From the sequence record NC_079183: a stretch of 53,673 bases of DNA. One strand, written 5' to 3'. Under the pieces are notes generated by a model, which was given only the letters and a program-made list of their open reading frames with translations, was not told the origin of the DNA and did not search any database. Positions 5,347 to 52,573 of this stretch are shown here, in pieces. The first letter of the stretch is position 1. The number at the start of each line of letters is the position of its first letter. Origin of the DNA: Escherichia phage vB_EcoM_SA91KD. The position numbers were made by a program, and so were the translations under genes.

Positions 5347-5440
5347 TGTCGATTATTAAGAAATTAGTATTCTGTGCTTTAATGTTCCCTTTGGTGCTGC
5401 TCGTTGTGGGCAGCTTCATAATCTAAACTAAGGTAATTAA

Positions 5441-5749: not shown

Positions 5750-5767
5750 TCAAACTTAGGAGTTATT

Positions 5768-6028
5768 ATGGCTACCAAAACAGGCATGATGATTGTCCCA
5801 AGCCGTAATAACTCTTTAAGCGGCTTTACACCATATAAAATCTATGAAGTGATTTCTGGCACTGGTGAAGCAAACCTGTCAGAAGTTGCTTTGAAGTTGG
5901 GCCGTATGGTCCACTCCGAAATCTCCTGTAACGTAGTTGATGATGAAGGTAAAATCCGTTTTGTAACAATGGATTTCTTTCGTGAATTTAACCTCAAATC
6001 TGAATTAGGAGTTCTGTACCATGAATGA
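5768..6028 (+). CDS. Hypothetical protein (86 aa)
   Basis: aggag RBS before ATG. Confidence 0.55.
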   Translation: MATKTGMMIVPSRNNSLSGFTPYKIYEVISGTGEANLSEVALKLGRMVHSEISCNVVDDEGKIRFVTMDFFREFNLKSELGVLYHE

Positions 6029-6203
6029 GGATGATGTTGTCTGCCCAAAGTGTGGCAGCAATAACGTAGACCATGTAGCACACGAAGCAGTGGGAATGTA
6101 TGGTCCAGTAGTTCTGGATAGTGCATTCTGTGTAGATTGTGGTTTAAACATTTATCGTGGAAAACTTATAGACAATAGTGGGAATATCCCGCCAAAAGGA
6201 TAA
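6021..6203 (+). CDS. Zinc-ribbon small protein (60 aa), first of a tandem paralog trio
   Basis: CPKCG...CVDCG pairs; C-terminus NIPPKG echoes the NIPLKG of the 6433 gene. Confidence 0.5.
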   Translation: MNEDDVVCPKCGSNNVDHVAHEAVGMYGPVVLDSAFCVDCGLNIYRGKLIDNSGNIPPKG

Positions 6204-6205
6204 TC

Positions 6206-6433
6206 ATGAAATTTAAATGTGTTGCTTCAACCAAAGACTACGTTCCAGTTGGCCTAATCATCGAGGGTGAAGCTGTTTCACCTTTGGAATTTAAAGTTAC
6301 CAAATCTGCTGAGAGTATTTCTCCAGCATTTCGTAAAGGTGCTGTCGTTCCCATGAATGGTGCATTCTGGACATGGCAGCGTGACCATCGCGCAGAGTTT
6401 GCAGATATTTGTGAACAAGGGAGCTTGCAGTAA
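6206..6433 (+). CDS. Small protein (75 aa), paralog pair with 6433-6639
   Basis: Both start M(A)KFKCV.ST. Confidence 0.5.
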   Translation: MKFKCVASTKDYVPVGLIIEGEAVSPLEFKVTKSAESISPAFRKGAVVPMNGAFWTWQRDHRAEFADICEQGSLQ

Positions 6434-6639
6434 TGGCTAAATTTAAATGTGTAAAATCAACATCCTATGGAGATTGCTCTCCTAAAGTTGGTGACGTGAT
6501 TGAGGGGAAACTCAAACATGGCCGAATCTTAATTTCGAAGGACAGTGACTGTAAGAATGTGTTTGGAAACCCGTATTGGGTTGATGGAGAAAATATTCCG
6601 CTAAAAGGCAGTATCTGGTCCTGGGAAGAAGTTGAATAA
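6433..6639 (+). CDS. Small protein (68 aa), paralog of 6206-6433
   Basis: N-terminal MAKFKCVKST matches the neighbour; start overlaps its stop. Confidence 0.5.
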   Translation: MAKFKCVKSTSYGDCSPKVGDVIEGKLKHGRILISKDSDCKNVFGNPYWVDGENIPLKGSIWSWEEVE

Positions 6640-6645
6640 TTTCCT

Positions 6646-6672
6646 CAACCACTTTTGTAATGAGAGTGGTTG
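6646..6672 (+). terminator. Hairpin (caaccact...agtggttg), possible intrinsic terminator
   Basis: 8-bp perfect stem with 11-nt loop right after the 6433-6639 stop; followed by AT-rich sequence, not a clean U-tract. Confidence 0.35.
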
Positions 6673-6702
6673 CTGAATATTATTAATTAACTTGGAGCAT
6701 TT

Positions 6703-6993
6703 ATGAAACAACGTACTCGTTTACAACGTGACCCAGCCACAGGTCGCTTGTTGCCAGCATATTTGAAGGTTGGTGACTTAGTTTACACTCGCGACTTTGC
6801 TTTTGACATTTGCCCAAGCAAAGCGTATGAAGTTCTTGCCACCAGCTTATCTGGTCCTAAGGTGATATTTGGTGCGCTTGAGCCCATTCAATTAACCGGA
6901 ACTCAGTTTGTCATTAAAGACGAATCTGGTTGCAACCGAATCTTCAATCTTGAAGGCGGCTTATCTAAATGGGAGAAGGTGAAGCGTGGGTAA
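6703..6993 (+). CDS. Hypothetical protein (96 aa)
   Basis: ggagcatttATG RBS context that recurs before several genes. Confidence 0.55.
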   Translation: MKQRTRLQRDPATGRLLPAYLKVGDLVYTRDFAFDICPSKAYEVLATSLSGPKVIFGALEPIQLTGTQFVIKDESGCNRIFNLEGGLSKWEKVKRG

Positions 6994-7219
6994 GAATTAT
7001 ATCGAAATGTTTAAGCAATTGTCTATAAATGGGCAGGAGTTCTTGTTAAACGATGTAAGACAAGATATTGAATTGTCTGACAAGTATTCTTATTTTGCCC
7101 AAAAGACAATTGTGAAGTGGACATTCTCTTACGTGTCCGCCAGTATTCCAGTAGAAACGCTTGTGATTAGCGGTTCTGGTGGTTCCGCATTATCCGCTTT
7201 GGAGAAACTAAAGCAATGA
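6986..7219 (+). CDS. Hypothetical protein (77 aa)
   Basis: Overlapping start/stop in operon. Confidence 0.5.
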   Translation: MGKNYIEMFKQLSINGQEFLLNDVRQDIELSDKYSYFAQKTIVKWTFSYVSASIPVETLVISGSGGSALSALEKLKQ

Positions 7220-7503
7220 ACAAGAATTCAATCTTACGCTATGTTGGTAAAACAAACTACAACTTTACCAACGGTAAGAAATACAAAATCGTCGCAGGTC
7301 GTGGCGACGGAGTTCCTCGCAACAACGGTACACTCGGTGCGTATATTCAATCTCCTTTGGGTTTTGTCGTTAATGACGATAACCGCAATTTATGTTATCG
7401 TACATTCTCCGATAATTGGGAACTTGTGAAAGATTCTGGCGAAGTTAGTTGGTATAAACCTGAATCAAACATGGACCCAATTCCAATTTCAAAGGTGATG
7501 TAA
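7216..7503 (+). CDS. Hypothetical protein (95 aa)
   Basis: ORF in operon, overlapping junctions. Confidence 0.5.
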   Translation: MNKNSILRYVGKTNYNFTNGKKYKIVAGRGDGVPRNNGTLGAYIQSPLGFVVNDDNRNLCYRTFSDNWELVKDSGEVSWYKPESNMDPIPISKVM

Positions 7504-7736
7504 TGAATTGGGTTATGAGAGATATTGTAATACCTTTCGTACTAATGTTGTTGTCTGTTCTGGTTGTCATTGGTGTGCCTACATACTTTGTTTACCAGTA
7601 TGAGTGTAAAACCTTTGCAGAATTGCAACAAACTGAATTCAAATACACTATCAATGGTTCCTGCTACGTCAAATCCAAAAGTGGCGAATGGATAACCAAA
7701 AATATGTGGTACTTTGATAAAGTACTTGGAGGATGA
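7503..7736 (+). CDS. Small membrane protein (77 aa, N-terminal TM helix)
   Basis: Hydrophobic segment IVIPFVLMLLSVLVVIGVPTYFVY. Confidence 0.5.
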   Translation: MNWVMRDIVIPFVLMLLSVLVVIGVPTYFVYQYECKTFAELQQTEFKYTINGSCYVKSKSGEWITKNMWYFDKVLGG

Positions 7737-7737
7737 A

Positions 7738-7935
7738 ATGCGTGTAAATACACATTTGTACAGCCACAAAAGCCACAGTCCTATGAACATCTTTGCTGGA
7801 TGGACTTTATGGTTTGTTGGTGAAGAATGCAGTCCTTGGCACAACGTTGAATGCAAATTCTTTCCAGCGAAGCCAACCAAAAAGCAAGTGCGCAAATTGC
7901 GTAGAAAGTTTATAAACGATTGTAAGTCCTGTTAA
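7738..7935 (+). CDS. Cys/His-rich small protein (about 65 aa)
   Basis: ATG 5 nt after ggagg RBS; the track ORF starts at an upstream TTG (7714). Confidence 0.45.
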   Translation: MRVNTHLYSHKSHSPMNIFAGWTLWFVGEECSPWHNVECKFFPAKPTKKQVRKLRRKFINDCKSC

Positions 7936-7975
7936 ATTAACAAGGAGCATTCATTGAGTGTTCCTGATTAATTCA

Positions 7976-7992
7976 ACATTAGTTGGATGTGA
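7976..7992 (+). promoter_or_regulatory. Promoter-like box ACATTAGTTGGATGTGA
   Basis: Exact consensus, intergenic, about 75 nt upstream of the SSB-like gene. Confidence 0.45.
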
Positions 7993-8064
7993 GAGACAAA
8001 GCTATTCCGTGGTTAGCAATGTCACTGAAACTTAAACTGTAATTAACTTAAGAGAATCTTAATC

Positions 8065-8436
8065 ATGGCACAATATTCAGATGTAAACACTGGCATCATC
8101 GGTCCTAACGGCTTCAAGAAAGACCCAAAACATCCCGACATTCGTGGACGTATTAACGTTGACGGAATCTGGTATTGGGTATCTGGTTGGAACAAGCAAG
8201 CAAATGGTAATGAATTTACCTCGCTGGCACTCACCATCATGACCCAAGAACAGGTCGATGAAATGATGCGCAAGCGTGAAGAGAAAGCTAAAGCCAAAGC
8301 TCAACCTCAAGCCGCTGCACAACAGCAACGTCAGCAACCTTCTGCTGCACAGCAACAGCAAGCTCCTGCTCAACAACAGCAGAGTAATTACAATCCAAAC
8401 GAGCCGAAAGACTTCGACGACGACATTCCATTCTAA
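8065..8436 (+). CDS. SSB-like protein with Gln-rich linker and host-type acidic tip DFDDDIPF (123 aa)
   Basis: C-terminus PNEPKDFDDDIPF matches the conserved SSB tail of enterobacterial SSB; compact N-terminal beta-rich domain. Confidence 0.65.
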   Translation: MAQYSDVNTGIIGPNGFKKDPKHPDIRGRINVDGIWYWVSGWNKQANGNEFTSLALTIMTQEQVDEMMRKREEKAKAKAQPQAAAQQQRQQPSAAQQQQAPAQQQQSNYNPNEPKDFDDDIPF

Positions 8437-8558
8437 TTGGAGATGCCCTATGAAAATTCTATGTTTTATAGGGCTACATAATTGGGAAATTTCACATGAA
8501 AACGATTATGTAACCTTTTGGGTTTGTAAGCATTGTTCAGCAATGCGTGAGGAATATC

Positions 8559-9455
8559 ATGGCAACTAACGTTATTGAAATACCTGCCAACTTGGTCAAA
8601 ACTGGCGACGTTGTAATTCATGAAGGTAAAGAGTATCTGATTGGGTATGTCTTCAGAATGGGTGTAGTTCAACTGCAATATTCTGGTGGATGTTTCAATT
8701 TTGAGTGGGACCAGGCAGTCAAAATCTTGGATAAACGTCCTACTACAGACTCCTTTGCAAAACCGGGCGCAACAACACGCGCAGTATTGGCAAGTCAAGT
8801 TCGACCCGGCAACACCTTATCTTATGGAATCAGGTTCTTTAAGATAAAGGAAGTTAAAGACCTGGGGGAAAGTGAGGTTCGCTTAATCCACGAAACAGGC
8901 TACTTTGACTTTTTACACAACCGCGTAGTCCATATTGTTAACGAGCCACCAGCTTTGGAAACTCCAACAATGGCATTCAACACCGAGATAAAGCCAGTGT
9001 TCCTTCCTTACGAGGGAGCAGTGAAACCATTCTCAGATGAAGAAGATGTTAAAGGTGCTGATGTTGAAGTTGGCGATGTTATCCGGTATAAAGGTGATTG
9101 GGCAACTGTCACAAATGCGTACAAACACCCAAATTCACCATACAATAAAATCAATATTAACTACGGCGACGTAAAAGGTTTGCAAGTACGTCTGATATTA
9201 ACTGGAACTTATTCGAGAAAGGTAAGAGCAGTAATGGAAACATTAAATATTCAAAATGCAATCGAAGCACAACGCATTCTTCTGCAAAAGCTGGAGCAAA
9301 TGTTGGAATTAACCCAGCTGCCTCCAACAGAAGATGGCAAGATGGCAATTGGCAATGCGTCAATTCGCGTGGACAAGGCAACAGTTATTAAAGCCGCACG
9401 CGATGAAATGAAAGCTGCCGCAAGCAAATCCGCAGAGCTTATCAAGAAGCTGTAA
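8559..9455 (+). CDS. Hypothetical early protein (about 298 aa)
   Basis: ATG 6 nt after gagg RBS (track ORF starts at GTG 8547); no recognisable motif. Confidence 0.55.
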   Translation: MATNVIEIPANLVKTGDVVIHEGKEYLIGYVFRMGVVQLQYSGGCFNFEWDQAVKILDKRPTTDSFAKPGATTRAVLASQVRPGNTLSYGIRFFKIKEVKDLGESEVRLIHETGYFDFLHNRVVHIVNEPPALETPTMAFNTEIKPVFLPYEGAVKPFSDEEDVKGADVEVGDVIRYKGDWATVTNAYKHPNSPYNKININYGDVKGLQVRLILTGTYSRKVRAVMETLNIQNAIEAQRILLQKLEQMLELTQLPPTEDGKMAIGNASIRVDKATVIKAARDEMKAAASKSAELIKKL

Positions 9456-9507
9456 TTAACAGAGGTCATTCCACTTCGAGTGGCCTCGATTAATTATAGG
9501 AGGAATT

Positions 9508-9717
9508 ATGGAAATACATATGTCTGGGGGTTTCTCCGGAGCAAAGATGCAAGGTGTAGTTTGTCCTGATTGCGGTCATGGTGGTGGCTCAAGCTATCCA
9601 TGTTGGTGCAGTAAATGTTACGACAAAGGTAGTAAAGTTTTAATGCTACCCTCTGTAAACAAATTCACTTATGTTTGCAGTTGGTCTGAATCTTTAAAAT
9701 TCCAACAGGGCAAGTAG
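9508..9717 (+). CDS. Cys-rich zinc-finger-like small protein (69 aa)
   Basis: CPDCG...CWCSKC...C pattern; taggagg RBS. Confidence 0.5.
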   Translation: MEIHMSGGFSGAKMQGVVCPDCGHGGGSSYPCWCSKCYDKGSKVLMLPSVNKFTYVCSWSESLKFQQGK

Positions 9718-9729
9718 TCTGGAGCATTC

Positions 9730-10080
9730 ATGAAAACTTTATACATTGCACTCACAATTTTGTTTGGGGTATTCGCATTCAAATCAGAAGCATCTGTTCG
9801 CAGCTTCCAGTGTGGCGGGTACAAAATGTCCGTTGAAACAATAACAATGAGCCAGCCACTCATTGCAACAATTTCTTTGCACGAGGGTACTTGGATTGAG
9901 ATTCCAGACAACGGAAATCCTAACCCAATGTCCACAGTGTTCTACAATACACAGAGCAGTAAGCTGGCCTTAGTTGGTGTTGACGCTGAGGAACGTTTGG
10001 TGCTACAGATTTATCGTGACATTGACTTCTTTCATGCCAAATTTCCATTGTTATCAACCTATTGTAAGGAAGTTAAATGA
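9730..10080 (+). CDS. Predicted secreted/periplasmic protein (116 aa)
   Basis: Signal-peptide-like N-terminus MKTLYIALTILFGVFAFKSEASV. Confidence 0.5.
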   Translation: MKTLYIALTILFGVFAFKSEASVRSFQCGGYKMSVETITMSQPLIATISLHEGTWIEIPDNGNPNPMSTVFYNTQSSKLALVGVDAEERLVLQIYRDIDFFHAKFPLLSTYCKEVK

Positions 10081-10310
10081 CGTCATCCGAATTTACCATT
10101 GATGGAGTACCATACTTACTTGAATCCAGTTGCGAATATCGTCACTGGTCAGTAATTCGCGACCGAGTAGTCAAATTCTTGGAGCGAGTAGGGAAAGATG
10201 CAGCTATTCTGACTACCGCCACAGTAGAAGGAACAACCGAAATCAATCGGGAGCTTGTATCTTTTAAATTAACCATCAACCCAACAGGAAATCCATTCCG
10301 TGAAAGTTGA
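10077..10310 (+). CDS. Hypothetical protein (77 aa)
   Basis: ORF in operon. Confidence 0.45.
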   Translation: MTSSEFTIDGVPYLLESSCEYRHWSVIRDRVVKFLERVGKDAAILTTATVEGTTEINRELVSFKLTINPTGNPFRES

Positions 10311-10569
10311 AGAACTGGCTGACCAACTTAAGGCAGCAAAACGAGAGTCTGCAAATCAATCAGAACGTGTTGCAAAACTGAAAGGGCAAGGCTCAACGTC
10401 CGAAGAAATCCAGTTATTTACAGATAATGTCTGGTTTTCAATGAATCGTGCACAATTTATCGAGATTCAGGAAGAACGTCTTACTGAACTGGAGAAGCGT
10501 GTAGAAACACTTGAGAGCTTGCTTGTAACACTGCAAGAAACTCTGGACCAGGAACTGAAAAATGTCTAA
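10300..10569 (+). CDS. Hypothetical coiled-coil protein (89 aa; start uncertain)
   Basis: Track ORF with GTG start overlapping the upstream stop. Confidence 0.4.
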   Translation: MKVEELADQLKAAKRESANQSERVAKLKGQGSTSEEIQLFTDNVWFSMNRAQFIEIQEERLTELEKRVETLESLLVTLQETLDQELKNV

Positions 10570-10978
10570 CGTTAAGCTGGGCCAACGCTCCCTTGACCGA
10601 CTCAAAGGTGTAAATCCTTCATTGGTGGCAGTTTTCAAGCGTGCATGTGAAACAATGCCGTTTGACGTAACTGTTCTTGAAGGATTGCGCACTTATGAGC
10701 GTCAACAAGAGCTTTTAAAGCAAGGTGCAACCAAAGTTCCAGTTAGCCGACACATGTCAGGCAACGCTTTAGATATTGCACCATATCCAATTGACTGGAA
10801 TGACCTCGAACGATTCAAAGTTTTAGCTCATCATATGTTCAAAGCTGCAAAAGAGCTTGGAATTACCATTCGTTGGGGTGGGAACTGGAGCCGTATTGAT
10901 GAAAATCAGCCGTATCCACCACTTGCACCAGGTAAGAAGAAGCTGATTGATATGCCGCACTTCGAACTTCCAGCATAA
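10562..10978 (+). CDS. Peptidase M15 (L-alanyl-D-glutamate peptidase type, T5-endolysin-like), 138 aa
   Basis: Zinc-site motifs SRHMSGNALDI and DMPHFE; region DIAPYPIDWNDLERF...KELGITIRWGGNW resembles the phage T5 endolysin (recalled from memory). Confidence 0.7.
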   Translation: MSNVKLGQRSLDRLKGVNPSLVAVFKRACETMPFDVTVLEGLRTYERQQELLKQGATKVPVSRHMSGNALDIAPYPIDWNDLERFKVLAHHMFKAAKELGITIRWGGNWSRIDENQPYPPLAPGKKKLIDMPHFELPA

Positions 10979-10986
10979 CTTCATCA

Positions 10987-11277
10987 ATGGAGCATCCGAT
11001 GAATTACGAAGATATCCCAAGAGAGTTGAATGCACTAGAGGCAAGGACCAGACGTGCAGAATCTGTTCTCCACCAGCACCTGTCACTTAATGTAAGTGAT
11101 GAAAAAAGGATGCGGTATACTTTGGAACTTGACGAAGTGGTTTATACTGTCAGCTACAACGAGAAGGCCGCTATTCTAAGTGCGCTTGTCAAAAGCGGAG
11201 AGGAGCGAATCAATCAGCTTAAAATTCTGGACACAGAATTGAAAGGTACTTGGGAGAAACTCAATGCAAAACGATAA
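10987..11277 (+). CDS. Hypothetical protein (92-96 aa)
   Basis: Likely ATG near 10999 after ggagcatccg RBS. Confidence 0.5.
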   Translation: MEHPMNYEDIPRELNALEARTRRAESVLHQHLSLNVSDEKRMRYTLELDEVVYTVSYNEKAAILSALVKSGEERINQLKILDTELKGTWEKLNAKR

Positions 11278-11812
11278 CATCGCTAAAGCAGTAGAACAGC
11301 TAAAGTCCTGGCGTAGAGATGAAACCTTACTGGTTCGTTTCTACACAGGCGAAACTAATTCTGAATTTGTAGATGCGTGGATTGATGGCCTATCTTGGCG
11401 TCACTATGATTTCGACATGCGAGATTATTTGCATGAAGAATACGGCATTGAATATCCAGAAGACGGCACATATGACGTAATTGAATCAAACGAAGAAGAT
11501 GTTACCGAAGTTTGTTTTGTTGACGGACTGTTCAGCATTCGTAAGTATGATAAGTTCAATGAGCTGCTTGTTGACACCGATTTGGATGTAATTCTTGCAG
11601 CATTCCGTAGTGGTGATATTGATATTTTCACTGTGGATGACTTGAACGACAAGGTTATTGCCCGATGTGATTCAATTGCGGAATATTTCCAACAATATGA
11701 TGGCATAGAAGTTCCAGACCACCTTCGTCCATATATTGATTGGGATGCAGTTGTAAGAGATTACGGAAGTGATTACACTTTCTCCGAAGGAATACTATTC
11801 TCAAATGCGTGA
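11264..11812 (+). CDS. Highly acidic protein, ArdA-like antirestriction (DNA-mimic) candidate, 182 aa
   Basis: About a quarter Asp/Glu; C-terminal EVPDHLRPYIDWDAVVRDYGSDYTFSEGILF resembles the conserved ArdA C-terminus as I recall it. Confidence 0.5.
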   Translation: MQNDNIAKAVEQLKSWRRDETLLVRFYTGETNSEFVDAWIDGLSWRHYDFDMRDYLHEEYGIEYPEDGTYDVIESNEEDVTEVCFVDGLFSIRKYDKFNELLVDTDLDVILAAFRSGDIDIFTVDDLNDKVIARCDSIAEYFQQYDGIEVPDHLRPYIDWDAVVRDYGSDYTFSEGILFSNA

Positions 11813-12044
11813 TTTAAATATTGCTGAACTTGAGGCTGGATTGATTGTTCACCACCAGACTCGAAACACTTTCTATCGTATTCTTGGACCCACAAAGATT
11901 AAAACTCACTGCGGAAGTTGGGTGGATGGGTTTGCTTACCAAGAGGTGAAGAAGTACGGGGACCATACTTTCTTAAGCATTGATTCTTCTACTATCTACA
12001 CACGACCGAAAGAGCTATTTGACTCGGATTGGAAAACACTGTAG
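11769..12044 (+). CDS. Hypothetical protein (79-91 aa; start GTG 11769 or ATG 11805)
   Basis: ORF overlapping the end of the acidic gene. Confidence 0.4.
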   Translation: MITLSPKEYYSQMRDLNIAELEAGLIVHHQTRNTFYRILGPTKIKTHCGSWVDGFAYQEVKKYGDHTFLSIDSSTIYTRPKELFDSDWKTL

Positions 12045-12110
12045 TTCCAGGCGGGTTTCTTCGAAGTGCCAAGCGGGTTTTGTACTCGCATTGGCCTTCT
12101 GCTTTAGTCT

Positions 12111-12130
12111 GAAACATTAGTGGGATTTGA
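12111..12130 (+). promoter_or_regulatory. Promoter-like box variant (gaaACATTAGTgGGATtTGA)
   Basis: First of three tandem copies in a non-coding kilobase. Confidence 0.4.
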
Positions 12131-12254
12131 TTCTGACCACTTAGGGAAGAAAGGCATTATACACTTATCGCCAAATGGGTGTCAAGCACTTTCTTCATTT
12201 ATTTTAATTTATTCTTATTATTCTCTTTGTTTGGAATATTGGAATAATTCTGAA

Positions 12255-12271
12255 ACATTAGTTGGAATTGA
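12255..12271 (+). promoter_or_regulatory. Promoter-like box (tctgaaACATTAGTTGGAaTTGA)
   Basis: Second tandem copy; shares the tctgaaac prefix with the 12111 and 14552 copies. Confidence 0.4.
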
Positions 12272-12391
12272 ATTAGTGTAATTCTGTCTGTACTCTTTTC
12301 CATTAGCAATTGTAGAGGGAGTCCACTGCAATAAGCGCAGCCTCAAACAACCAAGTCTGGACAACTTGGGAAGAGAGTGCAGCACAAAATT

Positions 12392-12408
12392 ACATTAGTT
12401 GGAGTTGA
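12392..12408 (+). promoter_or_regulatory. Promoter-like box (tACATTAGTTGGAgTTGA)
   Basis: Third tandem copy. Confidence 0.4.
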
Positions 12409-12690
12409 AGAAACAACATCAGATAATAACTTTGTAACTCGGTAGACCGTTGCGGCCGCATCGTGCGAGAATGTTCGACTCATTCTACAAAGTTATTTTC
12501 GATGGAATGTTTCCATCATATACATTTATCTTTTAACATAGGCCAAAGGGCCGGAATACTTATTCGCAGAAAAGCTATTCACTTGTTATAGGCGATGTAT
12601 TGGGATGAATTGGAACTAAATAAGCAAGCTGTTAGGGCTGAATAATTAGAGGGTTATGCCTCATGCTTATGTTAGTCATTCGAAAATAGG

Positions 12691-13024
12691 TTTGTGCCAC
12701 AAGCCGCTGGTGCTCTGAGGGAGTCGGACAAACAGGGCTTAGAGTGGCATAATCCGCACAAAACCGCGCCACCAGCTATGCCAAAGCGGGTGGTTTGGGT
12801 GAATGTATTGGGAAGGGTTGCAAAGCCTCTGTGGCCTCCGCAGCTTGCCAGGCTGCTATGCAGATATGATGCGTAGGTCGCACCCTAACGGGAGTAACCC
12901 TTCGCCAATGCAGTTATCCAGAATTGACACAAACGGTAGGCAGCGGCCCGATTTTCGGCCTTCCTGCGCTACTCTGTGGCCTGTTCCTGGGCCAAAAGAT
13001 GAGAAGAGAAGTCACAAACACTGA
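12691..13024 (+). ncRNA. GC-rich non-coding island; candidate structured RNA or small inserted element
   Basis: Visibly GC-richer than flanks; track ORFs here translate to Pro/Arg/Trp-rich nonsense; internal repeat ctctgtggcct twice; flanked by imperfect direct repeats (attcgaaaatagg / aatcgaaaattgg). Confidence 0.3.
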
Positions 13025-13045
13025 ATCGAAAATTGGAGAGTTCCT

Positions 13046-13255
13046 ATGGTTCAAAAATATGGCGTAATTAATCACGAAAACTTTCAGTTTAAGGGATACA
13101 CAATTGAAGAATTGTTAGAACTTATTGAAGGCTGGGAGATGAATGCGGAAGCAATAGGCAGTGACCTTGGTGATATGACTGGTGACTTAGCTATTGGCCC
13201 CAAAATTATGCGCGACTTGATTGCCAAAATTAAGGAGTTGCAAAATGGTTCGTAA
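13046..13255 (+). CDS. Hypothetical protein (69 aa)
   Basis: ggagag RBS then ATG. Confidence 0.55.
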   Translation: MVQKYGVINHENFQFKGYTIEELLELIEGWEMNAEAIGSDLGDMTGDLAIGPKIMRDLIAKIKELQNGS

Positions 13256-13565
13256 GCATTCTGCTAAAGTTTTGACGTTAAGAAATGTACTAATGTTTCC
13301 GTCAAGTGGGGAAGGAGAGGAAGAAACAATCCACTTCGTTCTCGTTGGTGGGCGTTGGTATTACAACGGGACCAATAACTTCACCGTAGGAATTTCGGAG
13401 AAAGACGGGTTCTGGAAGCACACTTTCAAAGACATACTCGAAAGCAGTGCTAAATACACCCTTACAGAAATTAAGAAATATTTCTACTACGGCCCAAACA
13501 AGTCCATGCAAATCGCAACCCGCGAATGGACAACAAACCAACCAGTTTACGGAGTTCCATTTTGA
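13245..13565 (+). CDS. Hypothetical protein (about 106 aa)
   Basis: ATG 7 nt after aaggag RBS; track ORF starts at an upstream alternative (13221). Confidence 0.55.
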   Translation: MVRKHSAKVLTLRNVLMFPSSGEGEEETIHFVLVGGRWYYNGTNNFTVGISEKDGFWKHTFKDILESSAKYTLTEIKKYFYYGPNKSMQIATREWTTNQPVYGVPF

Positions 13566-13852
13566 ACTTACAAGACAAATCTAAAGAAGAGTTGATTGAG
13601 ATTATCCAGAAAGAGCACGAACTCGCTGGCATCACAATTAACTTTGAACTCCAGGCAATGCAAGCTGTTGCTTTGGGTCATGGTCTAATGGCTACACTCA
13701 TTCATGCCAAGAATGTGTTAGGCGTTGACAACGAAAAATACCAAATTCTGGAGAAAGCTGCGCAAGAGCGGATTTCGCAGTGCTTGGTGACATTAGTTGA
13801 TTTGGGAATCGACGCAGAAACTGCGAACAAACGTATCCTACAAGGCCACTAA
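13526..13852 (+). CDS. Hypothetical protein (96-108 aa; start ATG 13526 or TTG 13562)
   Basis: Track ORF; a promoter-like box (gACATTAGTTGAttTGgg, 13788-13805) lies inside its 3' end. Confidence 0.45.
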   Translation: MDNKPTSLRSSILNLQDKSKEELIEIIQKEHELAGITINFELQAMQAVALGHGLMATLIHAKNVLGVDNEKYQILEKAAQERISQCLVTLVDLGIDAETANKRILQGH

Positions 13853-13853
13853 A

Positions 13854-14528
13854 ATGTCTTATCATGATGATGACAAAGAGATTGCACTATCAACGTGTAA
13901 GCAATGGCTCAATGATAATGATGCCGTCTATCTTGCCAAGGAAGATGTTATCATTATGTGGGTCCATTTTAATCCAGAATCGAAGCGCGGTGAGTGGCAA
14001 CGCTACAAGATGAAAGAGGCTTGTCGCATAATTAAAGCCACACGCGCTGGCTTCTCTGCTATGAAATACATCAAGCCAGAGATGCTGATGCTTGCTGCAC
14101 AGGAAGAAGAACGTGCATATAAGCAAGCTGTTAAATCTCGTTCAACTGTTCCTCCAGAGTTCTTTAATTTGGAGCGCGCTGGACACTTCAACAATTTAGA
14201 AATGTTGACACTGTGCCTGTTGCAAGAATTAGTTGGAAGAGGACAAAACATTGAAGCTGTTTGTCTTGGAGAACTCATGAAAGAGTTGTTCTCGGCAAAG
14301 GGCTTTGCTGTGCCAAACCGGACTTTACGCTGGAAATTGTTGCGAGCAGTCGCGCAAGAAGCTGGTGTAGTTGTTCGTGACAGAACAAACCGATTCACTG
14401 TAACTGGAGTTGGGCGTTTTGTAGCAATCCAGATTGAGGGTTATGACGAATCAATCATCACTGAACTCACTGTCGCTGAGACAAAGGATTTAGTAAACAA
14501 AACACTAGAACGATTCAATAGATATTGA
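13854..14528 (+). CDS. Hypothetical protein (224 aa)
   Basis: ATG 2 nt after the upstream stop (track ORF starts at TTG 13797); no recognisable motif. Confidence 0.55.
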   Translation: MSYHDDDKEIALSTCKQWLNDNDAVYLAKEDVIIMWVHFNPESKRGEWQRYKMKEACRIIKATRAGFSAMKYIKPEMLMLAAQEEERAYKQAVKSRSTVPPEFFNLERAGHFNNLEMLTLCLLQELVGRGQNIEAVCLGELMKELFSAKGFAVPNRTLRWKLLRAVAQEAGVVVRDRTNRFTVTGVGRFVAIQIEGYDESIITELTVAETKDLVNKTLERFNRY

Positions 14529-14557
14529 GTCGTTTGACGAATCAGAGCAGTTCTGAA

Positions 14558-14575
14558 ACATTAGTTGGATGTGGA
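14558..14575 (+). promoter_or_regulatory. Promoter-like box (tctgaaACATTAGTTGGATGTGgA)
   Basis: Near-exact consensus about 80 nt upstream of the 14652 gene. Confidence 0.45.
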
Positions 14576-14651
14576 AAGAGAAAGGCTCTTTAATTTTATC
14601 TAAGTCACGTCACCGTGGCGTGCAAAACTATTCAATATAAGGTATATACAA

Positions 14652-14990
14652 ATGGCTAAGATTGTAACCGTAACTCAGTACGAAGCTAACGATGGTTCCC
14701 TGTTCCTGACCGAAGCAGAGTGTAATGCACATGACTTCAAACTGGAAAACGGTGCTAAAATTGAGAAAGCTGCCGAAGCGTACCTGAACACCGTTGGCGC
14801 TATCGACCGTTCTCGCTCCATGCAGAAGAACACCATCGAGCAGTTCCTGGCATTCTACCTGCCGTGGGTTGAAGCTGGTGAGCCGGAAGTTGAGCGTACT
14901 AAGTTCGATACTCCGAAAGAAGCTAAAGTTGCTGACGCAAGTGTTGCCGAAGCTGCCGAAGCTGCTGTTGAAGAAGCTCCGGTATTCTAA
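14652..14990 (+). CDS. Acidic small protein, apparently highly expressed (112 aa)
   Basis: aagg RBS; strongly biased codon choice (ctg, ccg, cgt, ggt, ttc, aac) like the capsid and SSB genes; acidic Ala/Glu-rich C-terminus ending EEAPVF. Confidence 0.6.
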   Translation: MAKIVTVTQYEANDGSLFLTEAECNAHDFKLENGAKIEKAAEAYLNTVGAIDRSRSMQKNTIEQFLAFYLPWVEAGEPEVERTKFDTPKEAKVADASVAEAAEAAVEEAPVF

Positions 14991-15129
14991 GTTGCCGATG
15001 GCAAACTTGAGAGACTAAGCTAAATCGATCTGGCATGCACTGGAAGATTTCCGGTGCTGCCTTGAATCCCATTCCAGAGTGAGTGGGCTTCAATGAGCAT
15101 TCTTGTGATTAGAGTTGGGAGGTAGGCCG

Positions 15130-15336
15130 ATGCCCAAGCTCATGGCCCAGACAAGAGTGTTCATTGAAGTTACTTCAATATGGATTGTCGCCAAGTTGTG
15201 GAAGGACGTGCACACAGATTTAACGAAGAAAAGTAACAGCCTGAGAACTGTGAAAATTTCCCGTTATGTCGTGGGGAAGTGCACCATAACTTGGGTTCTT
15301 CACGTAGATATTACTCAAATATTTGCGGCTCGCTGA
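15130..15336 (+). CDS. Possible small protein (about 68 aa)
   Basis: Strong gggagg RBS 7 nt before ATG; odd composition, could be non-coding. Confidence 0.3.
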   Translation: MPKLMAQTRVFIEVTSIWIVAKLWKDVHTDLTKKSNSLRTVKISRYVVGKCTITWVLHVDITQIFAAR

Positions 15337-15878
15337 ATGTGAGCATCCATATTGAAGTAGTTTTCTGAGTCTTACGACGGGCCTAAACTGCCTGAAGTTA
15401 TTGCGACTGTTTTATTCATTTAAAATAAATGCAAATGATTCTGAAATGCGAGTTGCGGCTTAATTAAATTTAAGTCCTCTCCGTGGTCTTCCAATCCCAC
15501 GTAACCAAATTTGGCGCATTGTGGCTTCGAGATGTGATTAATAAATCGGAGCATTAATTAATTTGTATTCTGCGATGTAATGCAGACTTAAGTCCCTCAG
15601 TGCGCGTAGGGATGTGACAGAGTACAAACTTAATTCATTTAAAGTGAATTGCCCTGAGCATGGAAATAAACTGCTCAAACCGATGGTATCTACAAAGGTA
15701 GATTAAATCAGGTTGCCTGTTGGTACTTGGGTTCAACACCTGCTTGCACTCGCAAAGTAGTGCCTCGTACCTGAGATGAAGTGAGTCGGGACCATCAATC
15801 CCACGTTATGTCAAAACACAGTAGGCGACTCACGGATTCTACAAGCCTCGCAGTTCGGGAAAACCTGCGTTATCAAAA

Positions 15879-15888
15879 CCCCCCCCCC
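15879..15888. repeat. C10 homopolymer tract
   Basis: Read directly, 8 nt upstream of the tRNA-like element. Confidence 0.85.
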
Positions 15889-15895
15889 ATTATTT

Positions 15896-16156: not shown

Positions 16157-16164
16157 GGTGATTT

Positions 16165-16401
16165 ATGCAACAGCTTAAATCAATAATTCTTGGCGTCCTG
16201 ACTGCATTTGGCATTATCATTGCAGTGTTCCTCAAAGGCAAAAGCTCAGGCAAAGCCGAGGAGCGTCAGGAAGCCACAGAGAAGCAACTAGATTCATTAA
16301 AAGAATCTATCGAGATTAAGTCGCATGTTCAGAAAGAAGTGTCTAGCAGTTCTGATAGCAATGTCGATAGTGAGTTGCTCTCAAAGTGGGTTCGTAAGTG
16401 A
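16165..16401 (+). CDS. Membrane protein with N-terminal TM helix and charged helical periplasmic domain; i-spanin-like (78 aa)
   Basis: TM segment IILGVLTAFGIIIAVFL; aaggtg RBS; the next gene overlaps out of frame. Confidence 0.45.
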   Translation: MQQLKSIILGVLTAFGIIIAVFLKGKSSGKAEERQEATEKQLDSLKESIEIKSHVQKEVSSSSDSNVDSELLSKWVRK

Positions 16402-16534
16402 TTATTGCTTAATTGCACAACCAATCTATTTGGATGTTGCAGAAGTGAAAATATTATCACGCGAAACCAAAACACAGATTTTAGTCCACAATGAAACGTG
16501 GGCACAAAAGTGTTCGAAACTTACCCGACAGTGA
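16325..16534 (+). CDS. Predicted lipoprotein overlapping the 3' end of the preceding gene in another frame; o-spanin-like (69 aa)
   Basis: Signal/lipobox-like MFRKKCLAVLIAMSIVSC. The overlapped architecture is typical of Rz/Rz1. Confidence 0.4.
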   Translation: MFRKKCLAVLIAMSIVSCSQSGFVSDYCLIAQPIYLDVAEVKILSRETKTQILVHNETWAQKCSKLTRQ

Positions 16535-42000: not shown

Positions 42001-42736
42001 CGACTTTGCCGAAGGTATGGCCCAATCGGAAATGTTGCAGGGAAGCCGCGCACGGGTGCTGCCAAGCTACAACGTGCCACAAAGTGTCTTATCTAATGGT
42101 GCTTCTGTATTTGAGGCTGGCAGTGATGCACTTGATGGTGTACGCACTGGATTCAACAGGACACGAGAGTTTGCTGGAAGTGTTTACGACTTTATTGCTC
42201 AGGAAGAATCTGGTGGTCGTGAATACAACAAAGATGGTTCTCGTGTAACAAGTCGCACTGGTGCTCGTGGAGTAATGCAGATTCTCCCTTCGACTGCCCG
42301 TGACCCAGGATTTGGAATCAGGCCGTCTGATGGAACTCCAGAAGATGATGCACGAGTTGGTCGTGAATACTATGACGCAATGTACAAGCGTTATGGCGAC
42401 CACGAAAAGGCAATGGCTGCTTACACAGATGGTCCTGGCACTGTTGACAAAGCTGTTGATAAGAATGGATTGGATTGGCTGACTGCTGTTCCTGTACAAG
42501 CACAGAATCGCGTCAAAGCATTCCGTGAATGGTCCAAGTCTTCTCAATCTTTGGAAGAAGGTGCTACAGGGTTTACTCGTAATGGAATGTCATACGGCCA
42601 AACCCAAACTGTTGTTAATGTTAAGATTGATGCTAAGGTCAACAACCAGACTGCTTCTGCTACAGTTGCAATTCCTGGTGGTCAGACTGTGACTCAACAA
42701 ATGAACATGAATAACGGTGCGCAACAAAGAAGGTAA
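39011..42736 (+). CDS. Tape-measure-position multidomain virion protein with embedded YqaJ-like nuclease domain and C-terminal lytic transglycosylase domain (1241 aa)
   Basis: Central YqaJ motifs: W..FRKNYDITGSTVGTFLGNNPYTRPW, FMYSPDGLIGDDAIWEHK (D...E.K), YMDQIQFGMHVSG. Gly-rich segment GGGYSGGGGGRGGNF. C-terminal SLT-like EESGGREYN...GARGVMQILPSTA. Confidence 0.7.
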   Translation: MKTMANQKDLMKLSVNELIALGSQSGLTFHAGMKKSHMVQQLSASAASGWLDTNAELMGGSFEDDSLITESLGDSSMISDAAHIAQVLSSAGYTEAFHAAMNGPSHHVEAVHAYMERLGVSTDDVWMHMPKPNPNLPQGSFNMLNAYMRDTLQGHQDIMPEIPGHYSGDIMAEYSTNRGNIADSYNYMAHMYVDREQYSNHEQYARDISRVAKRLERELPSAFKEVGYTSASNVGNKSAPHISYMDALPQIGSPSIVSGIAHPRAPLNASGLPLGSYGSGINPEYSLTASLTGGTGWSEPSKALYSSISEAVKSAAKVYSGSKGMLNTRHEVSDRDMIMDSATRYTDLEEARSGYENLRSELADEPAYSASSVRAILENTYDKMDAEPVRIPKMKGASQRVDKDSLSTSTDFTAQLGEATNWNSARMRREELAIANMDSAGFRDVSDYGTGRSESPVRFHDLEQGSQEWLDFRKNYDITGSTVGTFLGNNPYTRPWAGMIDKIGLSRSKEHSDFTKKMFADGHRTEEEARARVSKEFGFDIKQTGAITNDNYPAFMYSPDGLIGDDAIWEHKNPQRAGKFADLLKGDHPDYMDQIQFGMHVSGRSRALFSQTINDETRSQWIEKDEGWYERNRNRLDSVLGRLDAGREFVRNNAGLEREELIAGARSAMTGDGIWKDIRQRSTRGYSAAAGTPEDPFIGSRSSYNPGASYSDYKPNFVMHEQNFPATTGNGDTGNDSMALSVKKGILAAQEENRQKGIGADADFDGKADSMGWNRERFDAANGGGYSGGGGGRGGNFTSGGNYYDDYGRMGGSLAAGIAGGSIGSATNGVMQALMATPAGRMAAVGIGAIQIGNEAAEYMNDFIGNSLDAGVINPNEYSSMSQGLEMLGLNSQQAARLNQTTHSAYNTMLNGDPSAAVNIVRGSRGLLTIGDIRATGGDPVALARIMQERGKERGWSQARIAGAAEMAGLNGMARAYDRTEYSHEQAGSVVEAGRNSDFAEGMAQSEMLQGSRARVLPSYNVPQSVLSNGASVFEAGSDALDGVRTGFNRTREFAGSVYDFIAQEESGGREYNKDGSRVTSRTGARGVMQILPSTARDPGFGIRPSDGTPEDDARVGREYYDAMYKRYGDHEKAMAAYTDGPGTVDKAVDKNGLDWLTAVPVQAQNRVKAFREWSKSSQSLEEGATGFTRNGMSYGQTQTVVNVKIDAKVNNQTASATVAIPGGQTVTQQMNMNNGAQQRR

Positions 42737-51659: not shown

Positions 51660-52001
51660 ATGGAACGACTATCCATTCAGATGTTTGTGGACCTGATGCA
51701 CCAATATGGCGTATGGCACGGATTATTGGCTGGTCTTACGGCTTTAATTCGTGGGGCATATGAGAGTGAAGGCTTAAGCAAGGCGCTGCTGGATGCGGCG
51801 CTGTGCAGCTTAATCGGCTTGTTTGCCTTTCATGTTGCTGGCACATTTGAAACCTTCACGACTAACGTCACTATGCAGTTAGTATTGGCTATCGTGATTG
51901 GTGTCATCGGTGCAAACCTCATTATTACAACTGTCAGGGAAAGTTTCTCTGGCGCAATCAAACAACTTAATCCTTTGACGTGGTTCAAGAAGGCACGATG
52001 A
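51660..52001 (+). CDS. Holin-like membrane protein (113 aa)
   Basis: Two to three hydrophobic helices, charged C-terminus, immediately upstream of a cell-wall hydrolase. Confidence 0.55.
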   Translation: MERLSIQMFVDLMHQYGVWHGLLAGLTALIRGAYESEGLSKALLDAALCSLIGLFAFHVAGTFETFTTNVTMQLVLAIVIGVIGANLIITTVRESFSGAIKQLNPLTWFKKAR

Positions 52002-52018: not shown

Positions 52019-52573
52019 ATGCTATCATTCAAAGTCCTTGCAGTTCTGGCAGCTTTAGTTCACATCAACGCCCCAGCTTCGGTTGGGGCAGTGAATTCTG
52101 CTATTACAGATTTTGCAAGTCATTCTTATTTAAATGGAAGTCTGAAACTATCTTCTTCACAACGCAAAGAGCTAGAATGCTATACTAAAGTTATCTGGTA
52201 TGAAGCTCGCGGAGAAGACAAACATGGAAAGATTCTGGTAGCTAATGTCGTCCGTAATAGAACAGAGTTCGGGAAGCCATTCGCTAACACCGTTTGTGAT
52301 GTTGTCTATCAACGCAATCAATTTGCATGGACACGAGAAGCAAAGAAGAAGAATGCCCAATGGAAGCATGTAGCAAAGATTAATTATGCCACAGAACAAC
52401 AACAAGTTCTGGACACCATTAATGTTGCAATCTCTTTTGTACTATTTAATCAACCCTCTGTCACCAAAGCAACCCACTTTTGTACAGCATCGGAGAAGTG
52501 CAACTTCAAGAATGTTAAAGGTTTGGGTCGTTATGGTGGCCATAAATTCTATGAGTATCTAGGAAATCTGTGA
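52019..52573 (+). CDS. Cell-wall hydrolase, SleB / Hydrolase_2 family, with N-terminal signal sequence (184 aa)
   Basis: Signal-like [24 protein letters not shown]; core [24 protein letters not shown]...[17 protein letters not shown]. Confidence 0.7.

What the first reader, a model, noticed from the sequence alone, without database searches (positions are those of the whole stretch)
10562..10978. T5-endolysin-like M15 peptidase in the early region, far from the holin
The motifs SRHMSGNALDI and DMPHFE, and similarity to the T5 endolysin, identify a zinc L-alanyl-D-glutamate peptidase. It is embedded among early genes about 41 kb upstream of the holin and the second wall hydrolase. Together with the SLT domain in the tape-measure protein, the phage carries three distinct peptidoglycan-degrading activities; which one is the true endolysin is unclear.
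Basis: partly seen in the sequence, partly recalled or inferred. Interest (0 to 1): 0.5.

Follow-up and report, generated by a model that had tools for sequence, protein, structure and literature searches.

The report
Known M15 endolysin, away from holin
The gene is a real, intact zinc peptidase that cuts bacterial cell wall and resembles the phage T5 endolysin, but the same gene and its odd position far from the holin are already annotated and described in closely related E. coli phages, so the finding is correct but ordinary.

Summary
Observation confirmed. ORF 10562-10978 (+, 138 aa) encodes an M15C L-alanyl-D-glutamate peptidase. It passes the Pfam Peptidase_M15_4 cut-off, hits PHROG 465 'endolysin' at 1e-54, and matches the solved structures of EndoRB49, LysECD7, EndoT5 and ChiX at 6e-24 to 2e-17. 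The zinc ligands H64/D71/H133, catalytic D130 and conserved W109 are all present.

The window is a whole Carltongylesvirus genome (Chaseviridae), about 95% identical to ST32 and DE15. The protein is 137/138 identical to ST32 gp24, which is annotated 'endolysin'. The layout of two hydrolases in two modules plus distant spanins was published for the relative SKA49 in 2023.

The protein has no export signal. The most likely mechanism is that it accumulates in the cytoplasm and reaches the wall through the lambda-S-type class I holin at 51660. The neighbour of that holin is a Sec-exported SleB-like hydrolase. The Rz-like spanins lie at 16.2 kb, so the lysis genes are dispersed.

Every Chaseviridae genome I opened pairs one M15-type peptidase with one SleB-like hydrolase. 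In Nefertitivirinae the two genes are adjacent, and T5-like phages also carry both. Which enzyme is essential still needs genetics.

Novelty: already known. Interest is low.

The parts
10562..10978 (+). Gene for a 138-aa M15C zinc L-alanyl-D-glutamate peptidase. It is soluble, with no signal peptide or transmembrane segment, and has a predicted pI of 9.5. Key residues are H64, D71 and H133 (zinc), D130 (catalytic) and W109.
10550..10554 (+). Shine-Dalgarno-like AGGAA, 7 nt before the ATG. The start codon overlaps the stop of the upstream ORF 10300-10569, which suggests translational coupling within an operon.
   Evidence: read directly from the sequence
10886..10948 (+). Variable loop, residues 109-129 (WSRIDENQPYPPLAPGKKKLI), between the conserved Trp and the catalytic Asp. 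It occupies the position of the Ca2+-regulatory loop of EndoT5 but does not align with it. It differs among Carltongylesvirus members and was modelled with low confidence.
   Evidence: breakpoint reported in PMC10282059
7976..7992 (+). Nearest upstream copy of the conserved motif ACATTAGTTGGATGTGA, a candidate phage-RNA-polymerase promoter. It would drive the unit SSB ... M15 peptidase ... anti-restriction protein.
   Evidence: inferred function; not tested experimentally
16165..16401 (+). Candidate i-spanin: 78 aa with an N-terminal transmembrane segment and a charged helical periplasmic part.
   Evidence: phrog_1026 Rz-like spanin, 2e-20; syntenic with the annotated spanins of Myduc and 4HA13
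16325..16534 (+). Candidate o-spanin: 69 aa with lipobox IVSC. It overlaps the i-spanin gene in another reading frame.
   Evidence: (phrog_1275, 1e-17)
51660..52001 (+). Class I holin of the lambda S family: 113 aa with three hydrophobic segments.
   Evidence: PF05106, 6.8e-8; TIGR01594 match, below its cut-off; annotated 'holin class I' in Mangalitsa
52019..52573 (+). SleB-like Hydrolase_2 murein hydrolase of 184 aa. It has an N-terminal Sec-type export signal ([24 protein letters not shown]) and the conserved YEARGE motif. This is the second candidate endolysin.
42191..42466 (+). SLT lytic-transglycosylase domain, residues 1061-1152 of the 1241-aa tape-measure-like virion protein (gene 39011-42736). 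It is presumed to act during DNA entry, not lysis.

Best explanation
The gene encodes a small, soluble, zinc-dependent peptidase of MEROPS subfamily M15C. Enzymes of this subfamily cut the L-alanine-D-glutamate bond of the peptidoglycan stem peptide.

Proposed mechanism:
- The gene is transcribed with the DNA-metabolism and host-takeover genes, probably by the phage's own single-subunit RNA polymerase from the promoter-like site at 7976.
- The enzyme has no export signal, so it accumulates harmlessly in the cytoplasm.
- Lysis timing is set by the lambda-S-type class I holin, encoded near the right end, at the end of the late gene block. When the holin opens the inner membrane, the peptidase reaches the murein and degrades it.
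- It probably acts together with the Sec-exported SleB-like hydrolase encoded next to the holin.
- The Rz/Rz1-type spanins encoded at 16.2 kb then disrupt the outer membrane.

Shown here: family membership, intact catalytic residues, absence of export signals, gene layout, and conservation.
Inferred: bond specificity, transcription class, dependence on the holin, and the division of labour with the second hydrolase.
For: Family and active site:
- establish the family. H64/D71/H133/D130/W109 align with EndoT5 H66/D73/H133/D130/W114; residue roles are from PMC10487532.
- There is no hydrophobic segment: the maximum 19-residue Kyte-Doolittle mean is 1.03, against 2.4-2.6 for the holin and i-spanin.
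- A large-hole-type holin is present.

The gene is maintained:
- Codon differences are 13 synonymous to 1 non-synonymous against ST32, and 11 to 1 against Mangalitsa over codons 1-84.
- It is 78% identical to the 4HA13 ortholog, while flanking genes are only 28-50% identical.

The lysis genes are dispersed, and the layout is conserved in Carltongylesvirus, Sabourvirus and Myducvirus.

Comparative support for a lysis role:
- Proteus phage Myduc lacks the M15C gene. In the same genome region it carries an M15A-type peptidase that is 64% identical to a gene annotated 'endolysin' or 'peptidase' near the right end of Proteus and SP6-like podophage genomes.
- In Nefertitivirinae (PVN03, Spp001) the M15A peptidase sits directly beside the Hydrolase_2 gene, after the tail genes.
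- In T5-like phages the M15C enzyme is annotated 'endolysin' directly after the holin gene and is the biochemically characterised lytic enzyme (PMC10487532). T5-like phages also carry a signal-peptide-bearing SleB-like protein elsewhere in the genome.
Against: - No experiment exists on this protein or on any Chaseviridae ortholog.
- The gene next to the holin is the other hydrolase. Two groups call that gene the (SAR) endolysin of this phage group (Mangalitsa annotation; PP101 paper PMC6989608). A holin plus an exported hydrolase plus spanins would already be a complete lysis system.
- The promoter assignment is only a motif. ICTV states that Chaseviridae promoters are unidentified.
- The loop next to the catalytic Asp is long, variable and poorly modelled.
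Confidence: 0.7

Rival explanations
1. The SleB-like Hydrolase_2 protein next to the holin is the sole functional endolysin. It would be exported by Sec and activated when the holin depolarises the membrane. The M15 peptidase would be a dispensable, redundant or back-up muralytic enzyme.
For: The holin-Hydrolase_2 adjacency is conserved in all Cleopatravirinae examined. An N-terminal export signal is present in the window, Myduc, PVN03 and T5 homologs. The catalytic-motif region YEARGE aligns with SleB. The gene is called 'SAR endolysin' in Mangalitsa and in PMC6989608.
Against: A dispensable gene would not be expected to show strong purifying selection. Nor would it be expected to be replaced by another endolysin-type M15 peptidase when lost, as in Myduc, or to remain paired with Hydrolase_2 across both subfamilies. 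In T5-like phages, which have the same pair of enzymes, the M15C enzyme is the characterised endolysin. The holin is of the large-hole lambda S type, which suits a soluble cytoplasmic endolysin.
Confidence: 0.2
2. The peptidase has a primary non-lysis role inside the cell. It might cleave cytoplasmic murein precursors or recycled peptides to shut down wall synthesis. Alternatively it might bind and tune the phage's T7-like RNA polymerase, as T7 lysozyme gp3.5 does.
For: The gene lies in the middle region next to the SSB and anti-restriction genes. This mirrors T7 gene 3.5, which lies between the SSB gene 2.5 and the primase gene 4 (layout; T7 facts from established knowledge). The protein is cytoplasmic until the membrane is breached.
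Against: There is no evidence of any such activity. T7 lysozyme has a different fold (Amidase_2) and its polymerase-binding surface has no counterpart here. In Nefertitivirinae the equivalent peptidase sits in the late lysis cluster, not with the replication genes. Every characterised M15C phage enzyme is an endolysin.
Confidence: 0.05
3. It is a virion-associated enzyme used to pierce the wall during DNA injection.
For: Some phages carry M15-type peptidases in their tails (general knowledge).
Against: The entry function is already covered by the SLT domain in the tape-measure-like protein. The gene lies outside the structural block. In 4HA13, the twelve proteins identified as structural lie close together in one region (PMC9699118).
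Confidence: 0.02

Closest known systems
Orthologs in Carltongylesvirus and Sabourvirus: ST32 gp24 (YP_009790684), phiEcoM-GJ1 gp21, Mangalitsa_022, SKA49 ORF22, 4HA13 gp20
   Same: Same gene in the same position. It is 137/138 identical to ST32 gp24, 81% to the Mangalitsa protein and 78% to the 4HA13 protein. These orthologs are annotated 'endolysin' or 'L-alanyl-D-glutamate peptidase'. GJ1, ST32 and 4HA13 are already in a published M15_C alignment (PMC10487532).
   Different: Only allelic. This window has the 138-aa ST32-type C-terminal half. GJ1, Mangalitsa and 4HA13 have a 131-132-aa variant that diverges from about codon 85.
EndoT5, the L-alanyl-D-glutamate peptidase of phage T5 (PDB 2mxz, 8p3a)
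   Same: M15C fold, with the H/D/H zinc triad, catalytic Asp and conserved Trp. It is a single-domain basic globular enzyme of about 137 aa, and it is made well before lysis. Identity is 38%.
   Different: EndoT5 is encoded directly after its holin and is activated by Ca2+ through the loop W114-D130. Here that loop is longer, rich in Pro and Lys, and unrelated in sequence, so Ca2+ control cannot be assumed.
EndoRB49 / EndoRB43 / LysECD7 (PDB 23ri, 8q2g)
   Same: These are the best sequence matches among solved structures (6e-24, 1e-23; 44% identity to the RB43 protein). They have the same catalytic residues and are soluble endolysins of virulent myoviruses, in which lysis genes are not all clustered.
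   Different: They have a shorter loop before the catalytic Asp and are not regulated by an ion. Their host phages are T4-like and lack a phage RNA polymerase.
ChiX of Serratia marcescens (PDB 5opz)
   Same: An L-Ala-D-Glu endopeptidase of the same fold. From general knowledge, it is exported through a holin-like protein.
   Different: It is a bacterial enzyme that, from general knowledge, serves chitinase secretion rather than phage lysis.
T7 lysozyme gp3.5 (an analogy in genome architecture only)
   Same: A wall hydrolase encoded among middle (class II) genes in a phage with a single-subunit RNA polymerase. The holin and spanins lie at the far right end, and an SLT domain sits in an ejected virion protein (gp16). 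These points rest on established knowledge of T7.
   Different: It has a different fold (Amidase_2) and cuts a different bond. Its second function as an RNA polymerase inhibitor has no support here.

Membership tests
MEROPS M15 subfamily C / Pfam Peptidase_M15_4 (phage L-alanyl-D-glutamate peptidases) | Profile match above the curated threshold | tested here: met
   PF13539 at 35.5 bits against a cut-off of 25, E 1.5e-8; phrog_465 'endolysin' at 1.1e-54
MEROPS M15 subfamily C / Pfam Peptidase_M15_4 (phage L-alanyl-D-glutamate peptidases) | Zinc triad H-x6-D ... H | tested here: met
   H64, D71 and H133 are invariant in alignment A1 with the T5-like and RB43 enzymes. Their roles are from PMC10487532.
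MEROPS M15 subfamily C / Pfam Peptidase_M15_4 (phage L-alanyl-D-glutamate peptidases) | Catalytic aspartate three residues before the last zinc histidine (D-x-x-H) | tested here: met
   D130 in DMPH aligns with EndoT5 D130
MEROPS M15 subfamily C / Pfam Peptidase_M15_4 (phage L-alanyl-D-glutamate peptidases) | Strictly conserved tryptophan near the active site (T5 W114 / RB49 W109) | tested here: met
   W109 is invariant in A1. Its role is from PMC10487532.
MEROPS M15 subfamily C / Pfam Peptidase_M15_4 (phage L-alanyl-D-glutamate peptidases) | Fold shared with solved members | tested here: met
   Sequence matches to 23ri, 8q2g, 2mxz and 5opz at 6e-24 to 2e-17. A single-sequence AlphaFold model (pLDDT only 62) retrieves exactly these four as its only significant Foldseek hits.
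MEROPS M15 subfamily C / Pfam Peptidase_M15_4 (phage L-alanyl-D-glutamate peptidases) | [quoted passage not shown] | not testable with these tools
   Needs purified enzyme and muropeptide analysis
EndoT5-type Ca2+-activated peptidase (a subset of M15C) | Ca2+-binding regulatory loop between the conserved Trp and the catalytic Asp | tested here: not met
   The loop 110-129 (SRIDENQPYPPLAPGKKKLI) does not align with the T5 loop NASGDYHDEIKRGTY. Its pLDDT is below 50.
Canonical (holin-dependent, cytoplasmic) endolysin | Muralytic domain with no signal peptide, SAR domain or transmembrane segment | tested here: met
   Hydropathy scan: maximum 19-residue mean of 1.03
Canonical (holin-dependent, cytoplasmic) endolysin | A large-hole holin in the same genome | tested here: met
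   The 113-aa protein at 51660-52001 matches PF05106 Phage_holin_3_1 above its cut-off and has three hydrophobic segments. Its TIGR01594 holin_lambda match is below that model's cut-off.
Canonical (holin-dependent, cytoplasmic) endolysin | Genetic linkage to the holin or lysis cassette (usual, but not obligatory) | tested here: not met
   The gene is 40.7 kb from the holin. The counterpart peptidase does lie within the late gene cluster after the tail genes, directly beside the Hydrolase_2 gene, in PVN03 and Spp001. M15C is adjacent to the holin in T5-like phages.
Canonical (holin-dependent, cytoplasmic) endolysin | Lysis defect when the gene is inactivated | not testable with these tools
   No genetics has been reported for any Chaseviridae member in the papers searched
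T7-lysozyme-like regulator of a phage RNA polymerase | Amidase_2 / PGRP fold with an RNA-polymerase-binding surface | tested here: not met
   Only M15 families match

The most novel reading that the evidence does not exclude
The M15 peptidase may moonlight the way T7 lysozyme does. While waiting in the cytoplasm it would bind the phage's T7-like RNA polymerase, or act on cytoplasmic murein precursors, and help switch the infection programme. This would explain why Cleopatravirinae moved the gene out of the lysis cassette, where Nefertitivirinae keep it, into the middle-gene block.

A more modest version is that Chaseviridae, and T5-like phages, need an obligate two-enzyme endolysin: a cytoplasmic M15 peptidase plus a Sec-exported SleB-like hydrolase. 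I would give that version about 0.3 probability and about 0.4 interest.
Probability: 0.04. Interest if true: 0.7.

Novelty: already known. Interest (0 to 1): 0.15.

Why it matters
It matters little beyond correct annotation. The protein is a near-identical allele of an already annotated endolysin, and the puzzle of two hydrolases is already in the literature.

The residual question is which of the two enzymes drives lysis, or whether both are needed. That question is directly testable, because these phages grow on E. coli K-12 (flopper's recorded host is MG1655). It also applies to the much larger T5-like group, which carries the same pair.

The enzyme could interest people who collect small globular endolysins active against Gram-negative bacteria. 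The solved LysECD7 endolysin (PDB 8q2g, described as active against Gram-negative bacteria) is a close structural relative.

Tried and rejected
- NCBIfam gave no hit for the peptidase.
- The phiEcoM-GJ1 genome paper (PMC2223254) is not held, so its original discussion of lysis genes and promoters could not be read.
- The Pantoea phage PA1 'Chaseviridae' endolysin paper concerns an unrelated lysozyme-like enzyme and is irrelevant.
- The Mangalitsa and Myduc genome announcements say nothing about lysis. The phage Tiny paper has no data on lysis genes.
- A literature search for the motif string ATTAGTTGG returned only unrelated papers.
- The sigma-70 promoter and terminator scan of 1-18000 found no more sites than shuffled sequence (31 against 37 expected; 18 against 15). 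It says nothing about timing.
- The single-sequence AlphaFold model has low confidence (pLDDT 62). I used it only to confirm the fold, not to interpret the variable loop. I did not run the large protein-database searches to build a deep alignment, because family membership was already unambiguous.
- I first described Myduc's M15A gene as being in 'the same slot'. On checking the neighbouring genes, it lies about 1 kb upstream of the SSB gene, whereas M15C lies between the gp20-like and anti-restriction genes. It is therefore the same region but not the same slot.
- A role as a virion entry enzyme was considered and rejected.

Full report
**What is there**

The window is a complete genome of a Carltongylesvirus (family Chaseviridae). 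These are myoviruses that encode a T7-like single-subunit RNA polymerase.
- The first 25 kb are about 95% identical over about 90% of their length to Escherichia phages vB_EcoM_DE15 and ST32.
- Gene order is colinear with ST32.
- Relatives have about 3.2-kb direct terminal repeats with the polymerase gene at the left end. The left-to-right coordinates are therefore physical, not an arbitrary cut of a circle.

**The ORF**

ORF 10562-10978 (+) is real. It has an ATG start, 138 codons, and an AGGAA ribosome-binding site 7 nt upstream. Its start overlaps the stop codon of the preceding ORF.

**Identity**
- The protein passes the Pfam threshold for Peptidase_M15_4 and matches PHROG 465 'endolysin' at 1e-54 over its whole length.
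- Among solved structures it matches EndoRB49 (23ri, 6e-24), LysECD7 (8q2g, 1e-23), EndoT5 (2mxz, 8e-20) and the Serratia L-Ala-D-Glu endopeptidase ChiX (5opz, 2e-17) (names).
- I aligned it with a T5-like endolysin and the RB43 enzyme, both translated from their genomes. The zinc ligands (H64, D71, H133), the catalytic aspartate (D130) and the conserved tryptophan (W109) are all invariant. The roles of these residues come from mutagenesis and NMR work on EndoT5 and EndoRB49 (PMC10487532).
- A single-sequence AlphaFold model is only moderately confident (pLDDT 62). Its only four significant Foldseek hits in the PDB are the same four L-Ala-D-Glu peptidases.
- The one region that does not align is the loop between W109 and D130. 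In EndoT5 this loop binds the regulatory Ca2+. Here it is longer, rich in Pro and Lys, and poorly modelled, so T5-type calcium control should not be assumed.

**The gene is maintained by selection**
- Against ST32, 14 codons differ and 13 of them are synonymous. Against Mangalitsa, codons 1-84 show 11 synonymous and 1 non-synonymous difference.
- From about codon 85 the Mangalitsa allele diverges sharply (4 synonymous, 8 non-synonymous in codons 85-110) and the protein ends up 6 residues shorter. This reproduces the recombination breakpoint at residues 81/82 reported for the SKA49 ortholog (PMC10282059).

**Context: the other lysis-related genes**
- Holin: 51660-52001, lambda S family, three hydrophobic segments.
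- Second hydrolase: 52019-52573, a 184-aa Hydrolase_2 (SleB-like) protein directly after the holin.
- SLT domain: residues 1061-1152 of the 1241-aa tape-measure-like protein.
I found them with a lipobox scan. PHROG 1026 and 1275 'Rz-like spanin' confirm them at 2e-20 and 1e-17. They are syntenic with the annotated spanins of Myduc and 4HA13.

The lysis genes of this phage therefore sit at three separate loci. Remoteness from the holin is no argument against a lysis role.

**Topology of the two hydrolases**
- The M15 enzyme has no hydrophobic stretch at all, so it must stay in the cytoplasm until the membrane is breached.
- The SleB-like protein begins [24 protein letters not shown], a Sec-type export signal. 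Its homologs in Myduc, PVN03 and T5 have clear signal peptides too.
- Annotators disagree on this N-terminus: 'SAR endolysin' in Mangalitsa and in PMC6989608, but 'endolysin (not SAR)' in Myduc.

**Comparative evidence**
- The same layout holds in three Cleopatravirinae genera. An M15 peptidase lies 8.7-10.6 kb from the left end, spanins at about 15-16 kb, and holin plus Hydrolase_2 at the right end.
- Database counts suggest both enzymes are near-universal in the family. I found 107 records with the family polymerase, 71 with the M15C protein at 60% identity or more, and a comparable number with Hydrolase_2. This estimate comes from counts, not from a genome-by-genome tally.
- Proteus phage Myduc has no M15C gene. 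It carries an M15A-type peptidase in the same region, though not the identical slot. That protein is 64% identical to a gene annotated 'endolysin' or 'peptidase' near the right end of Proteus and SP6-like podophage genomes. This looks like the replacement of one endolysin by another that suits the local host.
- In the other subfamily, Nefertitivirinae (Aeromonas phage PVN03, Shewanella phage Spp001; polymerase only about 34% identical), an M15A peptidase and the Hydrolase_2 gene lie side by side after the tail genes.
- T5-like phages carry the same duo with the adjacency reversed. The M15C enzyme, which is the characterised T5 endolysin, follows the holin, and a signal-peptide-bearing SleB-like gene lies elsewhere (also noted in PMC11180984).

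The recurrent pairing, kept through a change of M15 subtype and through gene relocation, is the best computational argument that the M15 enzyme takes part in lysis.

**Timing**

The label 'early' is not established.
- A 17-nt motif, ACATTAGTTGGATGTGA, occurs 10 times with up to 3 mismatches, against 0.31 expected by chance. All copies are on the coding strand, and all lie between genes or at the very 3' end of a small ORF.
- Copies sit at corresponding positions in ST32, Mangalitsa and the more distant Myduc. None is found in PVN03, whose polymerase is very different.
- This is what a promoter for the phage polymerase would look like. The nearest copy upstream of the peptidase gene is at 7976, in front of the SSB gene.
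- I therefore infer that the gene belongs to a phage-polymerase-transcribed middle unit. This recalls T7 gene 3.5, which lies between genes 2.5 and 4 (established knowledge of T7).
- ICTV states that Chaseviridae promoters have not been identified. The PP101 paper hypothesised eight consensus promoters, but the sequence appears only in a figure. Nothing here has been tested experimentally.

**Mechanism, with likelihood**

Most likely (about 0.7), the peptidase is a canonical, holin-dependent endolysin. It is made ahead of time, released by the class I holin, and acts alongside the exported SleB-like hydrolase. The spanins then complete lysis. Rivals:
- The SleB-like enzyme is the only functional endolysin and the M15 enzyme is dispensable (about 0.2).
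- The peptidase has an intracellular or regulatory role (about 0.05).
- The peptidase is a virion entry enzyme (about 0.02).

Only genetics and biochemistry can separate the first two.

**Comparison with what is known, and novelty**

The protein is a member of M15C by every sequence criterion I could test. It works like EndoRB49 or EndoT5, minus the T5 calcium loop.

It is 137/138 identical to ST32 gp24, which is annotated 'endolysin'. Its orthologs from GJ1, ST32 and 4HA13 are in a published M15_C alignment. [quoted passage not shown]

The finding is therefore correct but already known, and interest is low. The open question of which of the two enzymes lyses the cell is genuine and modest. 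It is shared with T5-like phages.

Noticed in passing
window 572-588, 2719-2735, 3569-3585, 7976-7992, 12114-12130, 12255-12271, 12392-12408, 14558-14574, 22899-22915, 42768-42784 (all + strand): A conserved 17-nt motif, ACATTAGTTGGATGTGA, often preceded by TCTGAA. It occurs 10 times against 0.31 expected by chance. All copies are on the coding strand and are intergenic or at the 3' end of a small ORF. Three of them lie in tandem in the non-coding stretch 12.1-12.4 kb. Copies sit at syntenic positions in ST32, Mangalitsa and Myduc, and none is found in PVN03. This is a candidate promoter for the phage's single-subunit RNA polymerase. The ICTV 2022 profile says Chaseviridae promoters are unidentified; the PP101 paper hypothesised eight such sites but gives the sequence only in a figure.
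   Followed up: partly
window 39011-42736 (+), residues 468-604 and 1061-1152: The 1241-aa tape-measure-like virion protein carries the SLT domain and also a YqaJ / lambda-exonuclease-like nuclease domain (Pfam 9e-14; PDB 3syy exonuclease 1e-7). The SPDG...E-x-K motif is intact. A recombination-type nuclease domain inside an ejected tail protein is unusual, and I have no explanation for it.
   Followed up: partly
window 16165-16401 and 16325-16534 (+): An overlapped i-spanin / o-spanin pair lies in the middle-gene region, 35 kb from the holin. The orthologs are labelled only 'hypothetical protein' in ST32 (gp36; the o-spanin is not called) and in Mangalitsa (037/038).
   Followed up: yes
window 52019-52573 (+), residues 1-25: The SleB-like hydrolase next to the holin has an N-terminus that looks more like a cleavable Sec signal peptide (…APASVGA|V) than a SAR anchor. 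Public annotations conflict: 'SAR endolysin', 'endolysin (not SAR)', and 'spore cortex-lytic enzyme'. The homologs in T5, Myduc and PVN03 also carry signal peptides.
   Followed up: partly
L005 8689-9054 (Myduc); L007 8608-9583 (PVN03); L013 1777-2878 (Spp001): Chaseviridae outside the Escherichia genera examined (Carltongylesvirus, Sabourvirus) carry an M15A-type peptidase instead of the M15C type. In Myduc it lies in the middle region and resembles the annotated endolysins of local Proteus podophages. In Nefertitivirinae it lies directly beside the Hydrolase_2 gene. So the pairing of an M15 peptidase with a SleB-like hydrolase holds in all five genera examined, despite the change of subtype and the relocation.
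   Followed up: partly
window 10814-10978 (codons 85-138 of the peptidase gene): There is a mosaic breakpoint. The N-terminal 84 codons are nearly identical in protein across the genus. The C-terminal part exists in at least two versions: the 138-aa ST32 type found here, and a 131-132-aa type in GJ1, Mangalitsa and 4HA13. This agrees with the recombination hotspot reported for SKA49.
   Followed up: yes
window 15895-15986 (+): ARAGORN calls a 92-nt tRNA-Ser (anticodon GCT) here. The ST32 paper reports a tRNA-Arg, and Myduc is annotated with a tRNA-Arg nearby.
   Followed up: no
window 33088-33651 (+): Two tandem 282-nt copies, 75% identical, lie between the head-protease / scaffold region and the major head protein gene. 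ST32 annotates a short 'Ig domain containing protein' in this position. This may be a duplicated decoration domain.
   Followed up: no
window 52570-53673 (+): A ribonucleotide reductase small-subunit gene (Pfam 4e-49) is the last gene of the genome. It follows the lysis genes directly, at the end of the late gene block, which is an odd place for a nucleotide-metabolism gene. I noticed no large-subunit gene, but I did not search for one systematically.
   Followed up: no
window 9508-9717 (+): A small Cys-rich ORF of 69 aa (CPDCGH…CWCSKC, zinc-ribbon-like) with a good ribosome-binding site lies just after a hairpin at 9462-9487. It is not annotated in ST32.
   Followed up: no
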